Source: an uncultured Candidatus Saccharibacteria bacterium
GTDB lineage: Bacteria > Patescibacteriota > Minisyncoccia > Phycocordibacterales > UBA6899
NCBI GenBank assembly: GCA_964515375.1
Contig: CAZERF010000004.1
Location: 22,012 to 86,011 of the forward strand
DNA: 64,000 bases
Reading direction: 5' to 3'
The notes beneath the pieces are model-generated. The model saw nothing but the letters and a program-made list of their open reading frames with translations. It ran no database searches and was not told the origin of the DNA. The translations under genes were made by a program, and so were the position numbers. Positions 4,056 through 55,146 of this stretch are shown in pieces (the first letter of the stretch is position 1; the number at the start of each line of letters is the position of its first letter).

Positions 4056-4487
4056 ATGCATAAAGTTGTAACAAAAAAAAATGTACTCATAATCAGTCTG
4101 ATGGGAACTACTCTTGTTTCTTCTCAGTTTTTTTTTGATTCCGATAGTTGTGGAAGTAGTAGTTTTTGTCACGCGATTGGAGGAATACTGAATCAAGAGA
4201 ACATGCTGGTCTTTTCGATTGCGCCATTATTGTTTTTTCTCTCCCTCCTCACCTACCGTCTCCCTCGAACCGTCTTCGGGCACTGGATGGGTTTCGCGAT
4301 CTGGTCCACACCCCTCCTTATGCTCCTCACCTTCCTCATCAATAAAGGAGGACAGAACGGGCTCGGTATGTCCGGCATCATGGGTGGGGCGTTCGACACG
4401 CTTCTCCTTGGACTCTTGTATGGTGCATATATCTTTATCTCCCTCTTCCGTATCGTGAAGGCATGGCGCGCGGAGAGGAGAGGGTGA
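4056..4487 (+). CDS. small multi-pass membrane protein (paralogue of 4859-5269)
   Basis: N-terminal hydrophobic segment, a Cys pair (CGSSSFC), three predicted TM helices and shared motifs with the downstream paralogue (LLSLLTYRLPRTVFGHW vs ILSLVTYRMHETIFRAW). Confidence 0.55.
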   Translation: MHKVVTKKNVLIISLMGTTLVSSQFFFDSDSCGSSSFCHAIGGILNQENMLVFSIAPLLFFLSLLTYRLPRTVFGHWMGFAIWSTPLLMLLTFLINKGGQNGLGMSGIMGGAFDTLLLGLLYGAYIFISLFRIVKAWRAERRG

Positions 4488-4831
4488 TCGCACGCCACGG
4501 TGCTCCTCGTGGGGGCACACCCCGCATCTTTAAGCACGGAAGCACTATTCCGCTCACCTTCACGCTCAAGGATGGAGAGGGTCACCCCGTGGAAGCACCG
4601 ACCCCGCCACAGCTCCTTCCTCCGGAGCAGGGGAGTCTTCTCCGTGAACCTCTCTCGACGCTTCCCACCACCGACAACCTCCCCGATGGCTCTTTGTTCC
4701 GTTTTGACCCTCAGGAACAACACTACCGATACAACTTAAGTACCAAGGGTCTCACACCTGGGTATTGGTACACACTCCGAGTGGTACTTGATGATGGGGA
4801 GGTCTATGAGACAGTCGTGGGGATACGATAG
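4463..4831 (+). pseudogene. orphan copy of the C-terminal beta-sandwich domain of the large protein (stand-alone ORF or gene fragment/cassette)
   Basis: The 122-aa ORF has its last ~105 aa identical to residues ~1048-1150 of the 653-4024 protein. The 15-aa N-terminal lead is unique, has no convincing SD and overlaps the end of the upstream gene. Confidence 0.35.
4505..4809 (+). repeat. direct repeat copy B (305 bp)
   Basis: See 3715-4019. Confidence 0.9.
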
Positions 4832-36457: not shown

Positions 36458-36523
36458 ATGGCAAAAGGAAGCGACAAGCAGAAGAAGGAAGCAAAGAAGC
36501 CCAAGAAGGCGGCAAAGAAGTAA
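36458..36523 (+). CDS. tiny lysine-rich peptide (21 aa)
   Basis: MAKGSDKQKKEAKKPKKAAKK, followed by the hairpin 'gaacggcaccccgccgttc'. No SD. Confidence 0.25.
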   Translation: MAKGSDKQKKEAKKPKKAAKK

Positions 36524-36584
36524 CGCGCAAGAAGAACGGCACCCCGCCGTTCTTTCTTTTTTGCGTCATGATACACTTGAGAGA

Positions 36585-36980
36585 ATGACCGATGAAGAAT
36601 TTGAAGCGTATGTTGCCGAAGGGATCGACGCGATACCGGAACGTTTCTTGTCTCGTCTCAAAAATGTCGCGATCGTGACCGCTGACCGTCCGACCGACAC
36701 ACAACGCGACGCGCACGACCTCGGTCCCGGGGACACATTGCTCGGACTCTACGAAGGAGTACCCCTCACGGCACGGGGAGACTATTACGGAGTGGGAGAG
36801 TTCCTTCCCGACAAGATCACGATCTTTAAGGAGCCGATCTTGGATGAAGCGGAAGGGGATAGAGAAGCAGTGCGACGTATCGTGCGTGAGACGGTGTGGC
36901 ACGAGGTCGCGCATTATTTCGGCTATGACGATCCGTCGATCGAAGAGCGGGAAGATGAGGGGAAGAATTTTTCTGTTTGA
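36585..36980 (+). CDS. zincin-like metallopeptidase family protein (DUF1025-like)
   Basis: 'MTDEEFEAYVAEGIDAIPERFLSRLKNVAIVTADRP' plus a C-terminal HExxH 'HEVAHYFG'. Confidence 0.65.
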   Translation: MTDEEFEAYVAEGIDAIPERFLSRLKNVAIVTADRPTDTQRDAHDLGPGDTLLGLYEGVPLTARGDYYGVGEFLPDKITIFKEPILDEAEGDREAVRRIVRETVWHEVAHYFGYDDPSIEEREDEGKNFSV

Positions 36981-37033
36981 CATTCGTTATTGCTCACACA
37001 AATGAAAACCCCGCGACGCATTGTGCGTGGCGG

Positions 37034-37340
37034 GGCAGGCCGAAAGAAGAGAATGAGGTCGTACACTACGGCCAGTGCATGGAGGGGTCCTCCTGGCGTT
37101 GACATTTTGTTGGCGGTGGTTGCCGGCGGGGTCCACGCTGACCCCGCCGGCAGTTCGGCGCCGATCAGGCGCCGTGGTGCGCGCGCCGGGGGCGGATCAA
37201 ACGGCAGGGCCGTTTCCGTGCCCGGAGCGCGATCGGTGCAGTGTGTTTCCTTCAGTGGGCGGGGCAGGCATCGTTGCCTTCCGTCCGTGCCGGCGGCCGC
37301 GTATCAATTTTTCTCTTGTTGGCTGAATTTCTTCATCCTC
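37034..37340. other. ~70%-GC structured non-coding block (possible ncRNA, class unassigned)
   Basis: No credible ORF on either strand. Multiple perfect hairpins (gccggcggggtc-cacgct-gaccccgccggc; ggcgcc-gatca-ggcgcc; aacggc-agg-gccgtt). Hairpin 37003-37033 is followed by TTTT on the minus strand. The motif 'ggcggggcaggc' occurs at both ends. Confidence 0.3.
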
Positions 37341-37358
37341 TTCTCCTTGTAAAGGTTC

Positions 37359-37388
37359 AAAAAAGTCGGAAGGGGCGCCCCTTCCGAC
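37359..37388 (-). terminator. rho-independent terminator (minus strand)
   Basis: On the minus strand: GUCGGAAGGGGCGCCCCUUCCGAC followed by UUUUUU. Confidence 0.75.
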
Positions 37389-37497
37389 AAGAAGGCGCCA
37401 ACATGCGCGAGGGCAAGAAATTCTTGCCGAGAGGGAGCGGTGCCTTTCCTAAAGAATAGGTCAGGCGACCCTCATGCGAGGCACAAGCGACTTCTAG
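37365..37497 (-). ncRNA. candidate small RNA (~130 nt) bounded by a sigma70 promoter and an intrinsic terminator; class unknown
   Basis: Promoter TTGACA-16-TAAACT upstream and terminator downstream on the minus strand. No ORF. Internal perfect hairpin GGCAAGAAUUUCUUGCC. Confidence 0.35.
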
Positions 37498-37501
37498 AGA
37501 C

Positions 37502-37529
37502 AGTTTAGCATATTCATAAATATTGTCAA
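37502..37529 (-). promoter_or_regulatory. sigma70-type promoter (minus strand) TTGACA-16-TAAACT
   Basis: rc of 37524-37529 is TTGACA; rc of 37502-37507 is TAAACT. Confidence 0.55.
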
Positions 37530-37701
37530 GTATTTTTTGCGTGGCGTGGGGATAGTGTTAAAAATCTTCATAGAGAGTCATATTTCCTCAGATTTCTCGA
37601 TGAGTGAGGGGTAAACTGTCGGTATTGCCCTTGCCTCGAGGTACACCTTCTTCCTTGTTTGCCTATCGACGCTCGCCCGTCTTTTGCGGTATAACGGTGG
37701 T

Positions 37702-38877
37702 ATGGAACCGCTTGCCGCATCGCTTCGCCCCGAGACGCTTGATGATTTTGTCGGGCAGGAACATCTCACGGGGGAGGGGAAACCTCTTCGTATTGCCATT
37801 GAACACGGCGAGCTTTTCTCTTTTTTGCTCTGGGGTCCGCCGGGTGTGGGGAAGACGACGCTTGCGCGGATCTACGCGCGCGCGGTCGGTGCGCAATTCT
37901 TCGAACTCTCCGCGGTCTCCGCAGGCAAGGCAGATATCACCGCGATCGTGCGCGGGGAACCCGAGTATGACGAGAAGACCGGCGCGCCGAAACAGAAGAT
38001 CCTCTTTCTCGACGAGATCCATCGTTTCAACAAGGCGCAACAAGATTACCTCCTTCCCTTCGTGGAAAGTGGAGCGCTCGCGCTTGTGGGTGCGACAACG
38101 GAAAACCCAAGTTTCGAGGTTATCCCCGCGCTTCTTTCGCGCACACGCGTCTTTGTGCTTGAGTCGCACACCGAGGAGGGGATGAAGAAGATCATCGCGC
38201 GTAGCGGTATTGATATTTCTGAAGACGCGCTCGACTATCTCATCCGCATGGCCGATGGTGACGCGCGTCAAGCGCTCTCGGTCCTCGACGCGACCACACG
38301 ACTCTATGGAGCCGTCACCTTGGAGCATTTGAAGGAGGCGTTGCAGTCAAAACATCTGCGTTATGACAAACTCGGCGAAGAACATTTCAACACAGTGAGC
38401 GCCTTCATTAAGTCCATGCGCGCGGGGCAGCCCGACGCCACGCTTTACTATCTCGCGCGTATGGTCGCTGCGGGGGAGGACCCCAAGTTCATTGCGAGAC
38501 GTATGGTGATCTTTGCGTCGGAGGATGTTGGGCTCGCGCAACCGACAGCACTTGTGGTCGCCAATGAGGTCTTCCGCGCGGTGGAGACGATCGGATACCC
38601 CGAGTGTCGGATCAATCTCGCTCACGGGGCGGTGTACCTCGCGCAGTGCAAGAAAGATCGTCGCGCGTACGACGGATTGAACGCGGCGTTTGCCGACGTG
38701 GAGCGAATGGGCAACCTTCCTGTCCCACTTGCGATCCGCAACGCGCCCACGGGACTCATGAAAGACCTTGGCTACGGGGCGGGGTACGAGAAATACACGA
38801 AGGAGGATCTGCTTCCTGAAAAACTGAAAGGAAAGACCTACCTTCGAAAGGACGACGATGGAAAGGAGCATGTATGA
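37702..38877 (+). CDS. rarA: replication-associated recombination protein A (RarA/MgsA, AAA+)
   Basis: '[15 protein letters not shown]' and the Walker A '[13 protein letters not shown]'. Confidence 0.9.
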
Positions 38878-55072: not shown

Positions 55073-55146
55073 TCCGGTGTAGCTCAGTGGTAGAGCAGTG
55101 CGCTGTTAACGCATTGGTCGCAGGTTCGAATCCTGCCGCCGGAGCC
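55073..55146 (+). tRNA. tRNA-Asn (anticodon GUU)
   Basis: 7-bp acceptor stem (UCCGGUG/CGCCGGA with one G-U), D-loop AGCUCAGUGGUAGAGC, anticodon loop CUGUUAA, T-arm GGUUCGAAUCC, discriminator G; CC is encoded. Confidence 0.85.

What the first reader, a model, noticed from the sequence alone, without database searches (positions are those of the whole stretch)
36990..37535. Promoter- and terminator-defined ~130-nt minus-strand RNA adjacent to a 300-bp, 70%-GC hairpin-dense non-coding block
Seen in sequence: the 700-bp gap between the zincin-like gene and rarA has no credible ORF. On the minus strand there is a near-consensus promoter (TTGACA-16-TAAACT, 37502-37529) and, ~135 nt downstream, a perfect terminator (GUCGGAAGGGGCGCCCCUUCCGAC + U6, 37359-37388). 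Beyond it lies a strongly GC-skewed segment (37034-37340) with several perfect 6-12-bp hairpins. It ends at another hairpin followed by T4 on the minus strand (37003-37033). I could not match RNase P, tmRNA or SRP signature sequences by eye. A weak resemblance to the SRP domain IV 'CGGAAGG' motif exists on the minus strand at ~37285-37295.
Basis: seen in the sequence. Interest (0 to 1): 0.5.

Follow-up and report, generated by a model that had tools for sequence, protein, structure and literature searches.

The report
New structured RNA gene beside rarA
The "empty" gap between two genes of an uncultivated ultra-small (Parcubacteria) bacterium holds a conserved RNA gene that matches no known RNA family: it appears to give a short form of about 135 bases and a read-through form of about 500 bases. 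Selection clearly preserves it, but its function is still unknown.

Summary
On the minus strand there is an extended -10 sigma-70 promoter (37529-37502), a strong intrinsic terminator (T1, 37388-37365 plus U6), a 66-72% GC hairpin block and a second terminator (T2, 37035-37009).

Four close relatives (RarA 92-93% identical) carry the same 540 nt at 85-89% identity, while synonymous codon positions next door are only 62-69% identical. Constrained modules are 87-100% identical. They alternate with linkers that drift at about the neutral rate. Indels of 1, 2, 4 and 5 nt rule out a protein.

A more distant genome (L172, RarA 75%) keeps the same order of parts with many compensatory base-pair changes: promoter, three-way-junction 5' domain, hairpin, Shine-Dalgarno (SD)-AUG mini-ORF, hairpin array, a 27-nt motif GGAGRACCCUCCAUGMACUGGCCGUAG, and a terminator.

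Rfam 15, ARAGORN, Pfam, phage, plasmid and viral searches find nothing.

Best reading: one lineage-restricted non-coding transcription unit. It gives a ~135-nt sRNA ending at T1 and a ~500-nt read-through isoform carrying two ribosome-binding mini-ORFs. The function was not determined. A 6S-like role is suggested only by rarA synteny and fails the structural and model tests. Interest is moderate.

The parts
37502..37529 (-). Sigma-70 promoter: TTGACA, 16 nt, TG-n-TAAACT (extended -10). The inferred transcription start is near 37495.
   Evidence: 10 of 12 matches, TG present. The -35 and -10 are kept in L166-L169 and in L172 (AAGTGCTTGACA / ATATGCTACACT blocks), while the sequence upstream is unrelated.
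37390..37495 (-). 5' domain: a three-way junction. P1 is 37495-37481 paired with 37408-37390. P2 is a long hairpin. P3 is the hairpin GGCAAGA/UCUUGCC.
   Evidence: MFE and RNAalifold structures. Identity to close relatives is 89-98%, against 62-69% at third codon positions. One A-U/G-C swap occurs within the clade. P1 and the P2 base are kept in L172 through changes on both sides.
37359..37388 (-). T1: an intrinsic terminator. The 24-nt perfect palindrome GUCGGAAGGGGCGCCCCUUCCGAC (37388-37365) is followed by U6 (37364-37359).
   Evidence: It is 97-100% identical in relatives. L172 has a hairpin at the same place with 5 of 9 pairs changed on both sides but a weak U tract. The 5' arm of T1 can pair instead with upstream GGCGCCUUC (37399-37391) or with CCGCUCC.
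37343..37348 (-). Shine-Dalgarno 1 (AAGGAG), 6 nt before the AUG of mini-ORF1.
   Evidence: Read from the sequence. Invariant in L166-L169. AAAGGAG-N7-AUG sits at the same place in L172.
37304..37336 (-). Mini-ORF1, 10 codons plus UGA (MKKFSQQEKN*).
   Evidence: It is kept as an ORF in all relatives (MKKFTQYEEN*, MRKFSHVETNI* with an in-frame 3-nt insertion, MKKFSQQEEM*) and as a 15-codon ORF in L172. The peptide sequence is not conserved, and all changes are non-synonymous.
37235..37286 (-). Module A: a hairpin with a 1x3 internal loop (GGRCGG-A-AGGCA-ACGA-UGCCU-GCC-CCGCCC, 37286-37257), then a conserved A-rich single strand (37256-37235).
   Evidence: 85-96% identical in the clade. L172 has the same hairpin, including the A and GCC loop nucleotides, with 3 pairs swapped on both sides.
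37121..37229 (-). GC-rich hairpin array: H2 (37229-37180), H3 (37173-37157) and H4 (37152-37121, a perfect 13-bp stem).
   Evidence: Stems are kept while loops change: a 5-nt loop insertion in L168, a C-G to U-A swap in H4, and a register shift in H2. L172 has a different set of GC-rich hairpins here.
37066..37094 (-). SD2 hairpin (GGAGG-ACC-CCUCC) plus mini-ORF2, AUG CAC UGG CCG UAG (37080-37066; MHWP*).
   Evidence: This is the most conserved element between lineages: 26 of 27 nt identical between L166 and L172, and 21 of 22 between the window and L172. Identity within the clade is 87-96%.
37042..37058 (-). Pyrimidine-rich 3' tail (CCUCAUUCUCUUCUUUC), complementary to the SD1/AUG region (37333-37344).
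   Evidence: Inverted repeat I5, 12 nt, 92% complementary. MFE closing helix. The tail evolves fast (50-54% identity); in L166, read by eye, it can still pair with the invariant SD1 strand. No equivalent was found by eye in L172.
37000..37035 (-). T2: the terminator hairpin CCCCGCCACGC-ACAAU-GCGUCGCGGGG (37035-37009) plus UUUUCAUUU (37008-37000).
   Evidence: 11 pairs, all cells paired. Identity in the clade is 90-97%. L172 has an equivalent hairpin plus U tract.

Best explanation
The region is one independently transcribed, lineage-restricted, non-protein-coding RNA gene on the minus strand.

1. A strong extended -10 sigma-70 promoter starts transcription near 37495.
2. The first ~105 nt fold into a three-way junction.
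3. Most polymerases then stop at the strong intrinsic terminator T1. This gives a ~135-nt sRNA.
4. A fraction reads through T1. This is possible because the 5' arm of T1 can pair with upstream segments before its 3' arm is made, which would act as a kinetic anti-terminator.
5. Read-through gives a ~500-nt isoform ending at T2. Its 3' domain is a scaffold of stable GC-rich hairpins carrying two Shine-Dalgarno-plus-AUG mini-ORFs (10 and 4 codons). Their ribosome-binding sites are partly buried in helices.
6. The molecule acts as RNA, most likely by binding a protein or the ribosome, and not through a peptide of defined sequence.

Shown here: the signals, conservation well above the neutral rate, the absence of coding capacity, and preservation of the helices.

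Inferred: actual transcription, use of T1 as a partial terminator, ribosome engagement, and the cellular target.

The confidence of 0.6 is for the whole statement. It is about 0.85 for 'functional minus-strand non-coding RNA gene' and about 0.45 for the two-isoform attenuation step.
For: - Promoter and both terminators, with their U tracts, lie on the minus strand only.
- The element is present in four related genomes at 85-89% identity over ~540 nt.
- Third codon positions of the flanking rarA and zincin genes are only 62-69% identical. By contrast the 3WJ is 89-98% identical, T1 97-100%, the SD1 region 92-97%, module A 85-96%, the SD2 motif 87-96% and T2 90-97%. Linkers are 0-76% identical.
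- Indels of 1, 2, 4 and 5 nt are scattered through the block. Translations of the + strand ORF diverge after ~50 aa despite 88% DNA identity, and there are no Pfam hits.
- In the clade alignment 98.4% of cells are paired, against ~46% when the partners are slid. Six cells show changes on both sides, a count reached by 1 of 500 shuffles.
- L172 (RarA 75%) keeps the same order of parts on the same strand. Its independent MFE has z = -10.2 and shows the same modules.
- In a structure-guided comparison, 14 of 31 pairs changed on both sides and none was broken.
- The nascent RNA up to the T1 loop (124 nt) folds best into a structure that uses the T1 5' arm (-48.0 kcal/mol, against -42.1 for the three-way-junction fold at 118 nt). 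T1 wins only once its 3' arm exists (the alternative hairpin is also seen).
- No consensus promoter was seen by eye between T1 and SD1, yet the downstream modules are under selection, so they must be reached by read-through.
Against: - No expression data could be consulted.
- Only six sequences are available. They come from two clearly homologous lineages, plus a possible third (L174), so statistical power for covariation is low: within the clade 95 of 111 pairs never vary.
- The L172 comparison was aligned by eye and is biased towards the structure.
- Folding energy is strand-symmetric: the + strand gives z = -6.4 and -10.1. In the predicted helices, G-U-type and A-C-type single changes are about equally frequent (my count). 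Strand assignment therefore rests on the promoter, the U tracts and the SD-AUG signals.
- The anti-terminator pairing is invariant within the clade, so it cannot be tested there. It is not evident in L172, where T1 has a poor U tract.
- Long-range 5'-3' pairing is significant only in L166 (p~0.003). It is not significant in the window (p~0.08) or in L172 (p~0.26).
- The function and the binding partner are unknown.
Confidence: 0.6

Rival explanations
1. A cis-regulatory leader. The 5' three-way junction is a riboswitch- or attenuator-type sensor. By controlling T1, it switches on expression of a micropeptide gene (mini-ORF1, possibly also mini-ORF2) encoded downstream.
For: The layout is the classical order: promoter, structured leader, terminator, SD-AUG. 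Alternative pairings of the T1 5' arm exist. SD1-AUG and a short ORF are present after the hairpin in both lineages.
Against: - Junction nucleotides are not conserved between the clade and L172 (CUCGCAU/CCUCUC/CUC against AAUU/CCGCC/UC). This is unlike ligand-binding aptamers.
- The peptide is 10-15 aa with no sequence conservation and only non-synonymous changes.
- About 270 nt of conserved structure downstream of the ORF is left unexplained.
- L174 appears to have the 5' domain alone, ending in a terminator with no gene behind it.
Confidence: 0.15
2. A divergent 6S-type RNA that binds RNA polymerase holoenzyme. It would be retained next to rarA as in Firmicutes, in a reduced or elaborated Patescibacteria form.
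For: 6S RNA genes lie next to rarA across Lactobacillales. In B. subtilis 6S-1 and rarA point in opposite directions (PMC8414754, read). Here the RNA is also divergent from rarA, 170 nt away, with a strong promoter and a terminator. 6S RNAs conserve structure rather than sequence.
Against: - The Rfam 6S models give no hit even at E<=10 on a 156-nt query.
- Twenty other Patescibacteria rarA loci show no 6S hit.
- The fold is a 105-nt three-way junction, not a ~180-nt rod.
- The 5' single strand of the 'bubble' is 7 nt here and only 4 nt in L172, which is too short for a pRNA template region.
- In L166-L169 a protease gene separates the RNA from rarA.
Confidence: 0.1
3. A DNA-level element rather than an RNA. 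It would be a cluster of palindromes acting as a recombination or insertion hot spot, a transcription insulator between convergent genes, or the scar of a mobile element.
For: Hairpin potential is strand-symmetric. Gene content changes on both sides of the element among close relatives: the S8 protease and a 149-aa ORF are present or absent. Other assemblies break at the T1 palindrome.
Against: - There is a single copy per locus. No copies were found in the 64-kb window, in 179 related loci, or in the phage, plasmid and viral collections.
- A conserved promoter, two U tracts and two SD-AUG signals, all on one strand, are not explained by a DNA role.
- Non-palindromic single-stranded segments are also conserved (module A tail, the 27-nt motif).
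Confidence: 0.07
4. A decayed or unusual protein-coding gene: a pseudogene, a selenoprotein or read-through of the UGA at codon 11, or the + strand ORF that gene callers predicted in L167, L169 and L172.
For: The minus-strand frame is open from ATG 37336 to 36923 apart from one UGA. + strand ORFs of 120-212 aa exist and were called in some assemblies.
Against: - There is a 2-nt indel directly after the UGA and many further indels that are not multiples of 3.
- Translations of the + strand ORF lose similarity after ~50 aa between genomes that are 88% identical in DNA. They are unrelated in L172.
- There are no Pfam matches.
- The ORFs were called in only some of the related genomes (L167, L169, L172), not in L081, L166 or L168.
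- Conservation does not follow codon periodicity. It follows helices.
Confidence: 0.03

Closest known systems
6S RNA (ssrS / bsrA; Rfam RF00013)
   Same: An abundant-type sRNA gene with its own strong sigma-70 promoter. It lies next to rarA and diverges from it, as in B. subtilis 6S-1. Structure is conserved more than sequence.
   Different: There is no model match. The fold is a three-way junction of ~105 nt rather than a ~180-nt rod with a large central bubble. There is a long 3' read-through domain with mini-ORFs. RNA polymerase binding is untested.
Riboswitch and attenuator leaders with terminator/anti-terminator platforms
   Same: The order is promoter, structured 5' domain, intrinsic terminator, SD-AUG. 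The terminator 5' arm has competing upstream partners.
   Different: The junction sequences are not conserved between lineages. The 'regulated gene' is only a 10-15-codon ORF of unconserved sequence followed by 270 nt of conserved structure. A possibly related RNA in L174 is a stand-alone sRNA.
Dual-function sRNAs (RNAIII/hld, SgrS/SgrT, SR1/SR1P)
   Same: A highly structured RNA of several hundred nt with many hairpins that also carries a small SD-led ORF.
   Different: Here the peptide sequences are either unconserved (ORF1) or only 4 codons long (ORF2). No target mRNA or base-pairing seed has been identified. There is no homology to these RNAs.
Large ornate bacterial ncRNAs (OLE, ROOL, GOLLD, raiA)
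   Same: Size class (~0.5 kb), multi-hairpin GC-rich architecture, unknown biochemical function, and discovery by conservation of an intergenic region.
   Different: There is no Rfam match to any of them. The known distribution is much narrower. There is an internal terminator and there are SD-AUG sites. No pseudoknots or conserved loops typical of those families were identified.
SRP RNA (4.5S), RNase P RNA, tmRNA
   Same: GC-rich structured housekeeping RNAs of 100-400 nt.
   Different: There is no covariance-model or ARAGORN match at any threshold used. The defining motifs are absent: the domain IV GNRA loop with its symmetric and asymmetric loops, the P4/CR-I-V regions, and the tRNA-like domain with a tag ORF.

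Membership tests
6S RNA | Match to the family covariance model (RF00013 and related models) | tested here: not met
   No 6S hit at gathering score, nor at E<=10 on 801-nt, 358-nt and 156-nt queries. None in L172, L174 or L021, nor in 20 other rarA loci.
6S RNA | Rod-like fold of ~150-200 nt, with closing stem, large central bubble (5' single strand of >=10 nt used as pRNA template) and terminal stem | tested here: not met
   The predicted and comparative fold is a ~105-nt three-way junction. The 5' junction strand is 7 nt in the window and 4 nt in L172.
6S RNA | Synteny with rarA (a feature of the Firmicutes) | tested here: met
   The promoter lies ~170 nt upstream of rarA and diverges from it. 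Compare PMC8414754. In L166-L169 an S8 protease gene intervenes.
6S RNA | Binds sigma-70 holoenzyme and templates product RNA | not testable with these tools
   This needs biochemistry or pRNA reads in RNA-seq.
Riboswitch / transcription attenuator | Sensor domain with highly conserved junction or loop nucleotides across lineages | tested here: not met
   The helices are kept, but the junction sequences differ between the clade and L172.
Riboswitch / transcription attenuator | Mutually exclusive terminator and anti-terminator structures | tested here: inconclusive
   Alternatives that use the T1 5' arm exist in the window: -48.0 kcal/mol for the nascent 124-mer against -42.1 for the three-way-junction fold at 118 nt, and the hairpin seen. 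These positions are invariant in the clade, and no clear equivalent exists in L172.
Riboswitch / transcription attenuator | A regulated protein-coding gene downstream on the same strand | tested here: not met
   Only 10-15-codon and 4-codon ORFs follow. T2 and the convergent zincin gene come next.
SRP RNA (4.5S) | Domain IV (helix 8) motif and a match to the SRP covariance models | tested here: not met
   No SRP hit at E<=10. The CGGAAGG string lies in module A, whose fold is a hairpin with a 1x3 internal loop.
tmRNA / RNase P RNA | tRNA-like domain plus tag ORF (tmRNA); P4 and CR-I to CR-V (RNase P); model match | tested here: not met
   ARAGORN finds only tRNA-Asn at 55073. Rfam finds nothing.
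Protein-coding gene | An ORF conserved in frame among homologues, with substitutions concentrated at synonymous sites | tested here: not met
   Indels that are not multiples of 3 run through the block. Translations of the + strand ORF diverge. No Pfam family matches.
Dual-function sRNA | A structured regulatory RNA that also carries a translated small ORF with a conserved peptide | tested here: inconclusive
   The SD-AUG sites and ORF integrity are conserved. The ORF1 peptide is not conserved. ORF2 (M-H/N-W-P) is conserved, but so are its synonymous positions. Translation is untested.

The most novel reading that the evidence does not exclude
The long isoform is a new kind of structured RNA that engages the ribosome. 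Two strong SD-AUG mini-ORFs sit in a GC-rich hairpin scaffold. One is the near-invariant GGAGG-hairpin/AUG-NAC-UGG-CCG-UAG unit, which ends in Trp-Pro-stop; from general knowledge, a Pro-stop ending is a poor termination context. These mini-ORFs would capture or stall ribosomes or 30S subunits. The RNA would then serve as a translation-coupled sensor or decoy in an ultra-small bacterium. Its abundance would be set by a kinetic attenuator (T1) behind a three-way-junction sRNA domain.
Probability: 0.15. Interest if true: 0.7.

Novelty: new variant of a known kind. Interest (0 to 1): 0.5.

Why it matters
In the literature searches run here, no paper describing regulatory RNAs in Patescibacteria (CPR) turned up. 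These organisms make up a large share of bacterial diversity and have tiny genomes.

This locus is a clear case of a non-coding region under selection well above that on neighbouring synonymous sites, and it matches no described RNA family. If it is transcribed as inferred, it adds a new RNA family. The family has an unusual composite design: an sRNA, an internal terminator, a hairpin scaffold, and conserved ribosome-binding mini-ORFs.

Its position beside rarA also raises the testable question of whether it is the missing functional counterpart of 6S RNA in these bacteria.

The practical limits are the narrow known distribution (two or three sub-lineages) and the lack of cultured hosts.

Tried and rejected
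- **Known RNA families.** I ran Rfam at gathering score on the whole window and E-value scans on four sub-regions, on L172, L174 and L021, and on 20 other rarA loci. Only noise came back (miRNA, snoRNA and viral motifs). ARAGORN found no tmRNA.
- **Coding on either strand.** Rejected on the basis of indels, diverging translations and the absence of Pfam hits. Selenocysteine or UGA read-through is rejected because a 2-nt indel lies directly after the UGA.
- **Repeat or mobile element.** There are no further copies in the window or in 179 loci. Nothing was found in viral contigs, phages or plasmids.
- **Homologues in 160 rarA loci from GTDB genomes and JGI metagenomes.** None was found by BLASTN, nhmmer or the leader covariance model R1. 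R1 was built from near-identical sequences and proved too narrow: it misses even L172.
- **Global closing helix between the 5' leader and the 3' motif,** proposed by RNAalifold. It is not conserved in L172, so I did not adopt it.
- **CsrA-sponge idea (GGA motifs).** By eye the number of GGA motifs looked close to chance, and the hairpin loops are not conserved. I did not pursue it.
- **Similarity of GCCGUAG / CCUCC to the 16S rRNA 3' end.** A 7-mer match is expected by chance, so I dropped it.
- **MAFFT plus RNAalifold across the three lineages**. The alignment was too poor to use.
- **Motif hits in L099 and L120.** They turned out to lie inside protein-coding genes.
Full report
**1. What is in the sequence**

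The 721-nt gap lies between a Zincin_1 gene (36585-36980, +) and rarA (37702-38877, +). Read on the minus strand, it carries these parts in order:
- a promoter, TTGACA-16-TG-n-TAAACT (37529-37502; 10 of 12 matches, TG present);
- about 105 nt that fold into a three-way junction;
- a 24-nt perfectly palindromic hairpin followed by U6 (T1, 37388-37359);
- AAGGAG, six nucleotides, then AUG, opening a 10-codon ORF (37336-37304);
- a run of GC-rich hairpins;
- a GGAGG/CCUCC hairpin followed directly by AUG CAC UGG CCG UAG (37094-37066);
- a pyrimidine tract;
- a second terminator (T2, 37035-37000).

GC content reaches 0.67-0.72 in 37000-37299, against 0.53 for the whole window. Folding energies are far below those of dinucleotide shuffles: z = -4.4 for the leader, -5.0 for the block and -5.8 for the whole unit.

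**2. Known families**

Rfam 15 finds only a tRNA in the window at gathering score. E-value scans of the gap, of the leader alone and of the block alone return only chance-level hits: miRNA, snoRNA and viral pseudoknot models, all far below their thresholds. No SRP, RNase P, tmRNA, 6S, T-box or riboswitch model appears even at E<=10. ARAGORN finds no tmRNA. The ORFs in the gap have no Pfam match.

**3. Organism and relatives**

RarA places the window in Patescibacteria (Parcubacteria, Lloydbacteria-like). The best matches among 185,000 species genomes and the JGI metagenomes are only 73-74% identical, and none of those 160 loci holds anything like the element.

Exact-protein look-ups recovered the same strain (L081, one mismatch in 7.2 kb). 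They also recovered three contigs that stop near here, two of them (L082, L084) inside the T1 palindrome. I read those two as assembly breaks at a perfect palindrome.

The 90%-identity RarA cluster gave four different close relatives: L166, L167, L168 and L169. All four carry the element. Window 37000-37535 aligns to them at 85-89% identity.

Gene content around the element differs among these genomes. In the relatives a 626-aa S8 protease gene lies between the element's promoter and rarA. L166 and L168 have an extra 149-aa ORF on the zincin side. The element is thus the stable piece in a variable neighbourhood.

**4. Selection**

Against these relatives, rarA and the zincin gene are 96-97% and 89-97% identical at first and second codon positions, but only 62-69% identical at third positions. 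Within the element:

| Segment | Identity to the window |
|---|---|
| Three-way junction | 89-98% |
| T1 | 97-100% |
| SD1/AUG region | 92-97% |
| Module A | 85-96% |
| SD2 hairpin plus mini-ORF2 | 87-96% |
| T2 | 90-97% |
| 5' tail | 0-33% |
| Linker after ORF1 | 35-76% |
| Central linker | 44-72% |
| 3' tail | 50-54% |

This mosaic of constrained modules and freely drifting linkers is what a functional structured RNA looks like. It is not what a pseudogene or a spacer looks like.

**5. Not protein-coding**

The alignments show indels of 1, 2, 4 and 5 nt throughout the block, including a 2-nt indel directly after the UGA of mini-ORF1. Gene callers predicted + strand ORFs across the element in L167, L169 and L172. 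Their translations lose similarity to the window's ORF after ~50 residues, although the DNA is 88% identical. In L172 they are unrelated, and they have no Pfam match.

**6. Structure**

Within the clade, a curated set of 111 local pairs is 98.4% paired, against about 46% when the partners are slid by 1-3 columns. Three pairs carry changes on both sides: an A-U/G-C swap in P2, a C-G/U-A swap in H4 and a G-C/U-G change in H2. The count of such cells is reached by 1 of 500 shuffles. However, 95 of the 111 pairs never vary, so power is low. Loops change while stems stay, for example a 5-nt loop insertion in H4 of L168.

The informative comparison is L172, with RarA 75% and the zincin protein 74% identical. 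Between the same two genes and on the same strand it has:
- the same promoter blocks (AAGTGCTTGACA and ATATGCTACACT);
- a three-way junction;
- a strong hairpin in the place of T1;
- AAAGGAG-N7-AUG with a 15-codon ORF;
- a hairpin with the same 1x3 internal loop as module A;
- an array of different GC-rich hairpins;
- the motif GGAGAACCCUCCAUGAACUGGCCGUAG, 26 of 27 nt identical to L166;
- a terminator.

Its own MFE has z = -10.2. In a structure-guided comparison of P1, the P2 base, T1 and module A, made by hand and therefore biased, 14 of 31 pairs differ on both sides and none is broken.

Other lineages lack the element at this locus. L173 and L179 have a 256-267-nt gap holding a small Lys-rich ORF. 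L174-L178 have a ~150-nt RNA on the same strand, defined by a promoter and a terminator. Its 5' end (CAGGAAG...) and overall design (closing stem, internal junction, terminator) resemble the 5' domain of the element. Homology could not be established.

**7. Strand**

Thermodynamic structure does not discriminate between the strands: the + strand gives z = -6.4 and -10.1. In the predicted helices, single changes of the G-U type and the A-C type are about equally frequent (my count). The minus strand is assigned because the promoter, both U tracts and both SD-AUG units lie on it, and because all of these are kept in both lineages.

**8. How it probably works**

T1 is a textbook terminator (10 GC-rich pairs plus U6) and is invariant in the clade. 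A ~135-nt RNA should therefore be the main product.

The modules downstream of T1 are equally constrained, and I saw no consensus promoter for them by eye in the sequence. They must therefore be reached by read-through.

Folding of growing transcripts shows how this could happen. Just before the 3' arm of T1 is made (124 nt), the most stable structure uses the T1 5' arm (-48.0 kcal/mol, against -42.1 for the three-way-junction fold at 118 nt). The junction plus T1 wins only once the 3' arm exists. A second competing hairpin, GGCGCCUUC...GAAGG-GGCGCC, is visible. There is also an alternative partner for GGCAAG: CUUGUGCC instead of UCUUGCC, which I found by inspection. The conserved block UCUCGGCAA lines up with P1 of L172.

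This would make a kinetic attenuator. That step is an inference: the positions are invariant in the clade, and L172 shows neither a clear anti-terminator nor a good U tract.

The long isoform carries two ribosome-binding sites with start codons at proper spacing, and both are kept in both lineages.
- ORF1 stays open in every genome (10, 10, 11, 10 and 15 codons). Its peptide is not conserved, and every change is non-synonymous.
- ORF2 (M-H/N-W-P-stop) lies inside the most conserved 27 nt of the element. Its SD is sequestered in a 5-bp hairpin.
- In the window, and by eye in L166, the SD1/AUG region can pair with the fast-evolving pyrimidine tail. No such partner was found by eye in L172.

I therefore favour an RNA that works as RNA and engages ribosomes or another protein. 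I do not favour a peptide gene. The partner is unknown.

**9. Comparison with known systems**

The nearest functional analogy by genomic context is 6S RNA. In Lactobacillales and B. subtilis the 6S gene lies beside rarA, and in B. subtilis the two genes point in opposite directions (PMC8414754). That is the arrangement here. However, the model tests are negative, the fold is a small three-way junction, and the putative template strand is 4-7 nt. Membership therefore fails on the features I could test, and I give a 6S-like function about 10%.

The layout resembles a riboswitch or attenuator leader, but three things argue against it: the junctions are not conserved, there is no real downstream gene, and a possibly related stand-alone sRNA exists in L174. 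Dual-function sRNAs and the large ornate ncRNAs are looser analogies. My literature searches found no paper describing regulatory RNAs in Patescibacteria.

**10. Verdict**

The finding is real. It is a new RNA family of unknown function, with a known distribution of two, perhaps three, sub-lineages of Parcubacteria.

My confidence that it is a functional minus-strand non-coding RNA gene is about 0.85. My confidence in the two-isoform attenuation mechanism is about 0.45. Interest is moderate (0.5): clear novelty and an unusual architecture, against no expression data, a narrow distribution and no mechanism yet.

Noticed in passing
window 36459-36523 (+), terminator 36531-36555: An uncalled 21-codon Lys-rich ORF (MAKGSDKQKKEAKKPKKAAKK*) with its own terminator lies just upstream of the zincin gene. 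A similar small ORF sits between the zincin gene and rarA in L173 and L179. It is probably the 32-aa gene called at L172 3013-3111.
   Followed up: partly
L166 4042-5922, L167 4047-5927, L168 4042-5922, L169 854-2734 (absent from the window near 37540-37700): Close relatives carry a 626-aa secreted-type Peptidase_S8 gene (Fervidolysin_NPro-like plus fn3) between the RNA promoter and rarA. The window lacks it. L166 and L168 also have an extra 149-aa ORF between the zincin gene and the RNA. Gene gain and loss occur on both sides of a stable RNA locus.
   Followed up: partly
L174 about 2974 to 2800 (minus strand); same in L175-L178: A ~150-nt structured RNA defined by a promoter and a terminator (TTGACA-16-TATGAT; 12-bp closing stem; z = -4.5) lies between the zincin gene and rarA in a neighbouring lineage. 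It has no Rfam match. It is possibly the stand-alone homologue of the element's 5' domain.
   Followed up: partly
L021 about 875 to 620 (minus strand, divergent from rarA): Another unassigned GC-rich structured RNA candidate of ~200 nt (z = -5.8) with a promoter-like site and a strong terminator, directly upstream of rarA and divergent from it. It has no Rfam hit and no obvious similarity to the element.
   Followed up: partly
window 37365-37388; L082 and L084 contig ends: Independent assemblies of the same strain end at 37364 and 37370, at the edge of and inside the 24-nt perfect palindrome of T1. This is probably an assembly-graph break at a palindrome rather than strain variation.
   Followed up: partly
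L172 3652-3682 and 4473-4503; inverted repeat 4445-4491: In L172 the element is flanked by two similar hairpin-forming sequences (AAAGGCNGCCTTTGTTTT, 77% identical direct repeats 821 nt apart). These are either duplicated terminators or a footprint of how the RNA cassette entered the intergenic region.
   Followed up: no
window 36981-37040 (+ strand): The zincin gene has no + strand intrinsic terminator of its own, because the T2 hairpin has its U tract only on the minus strand. Zincin read-through transcripts would therefore be antisense to the RNA's 3' domain.
   Followed up: no
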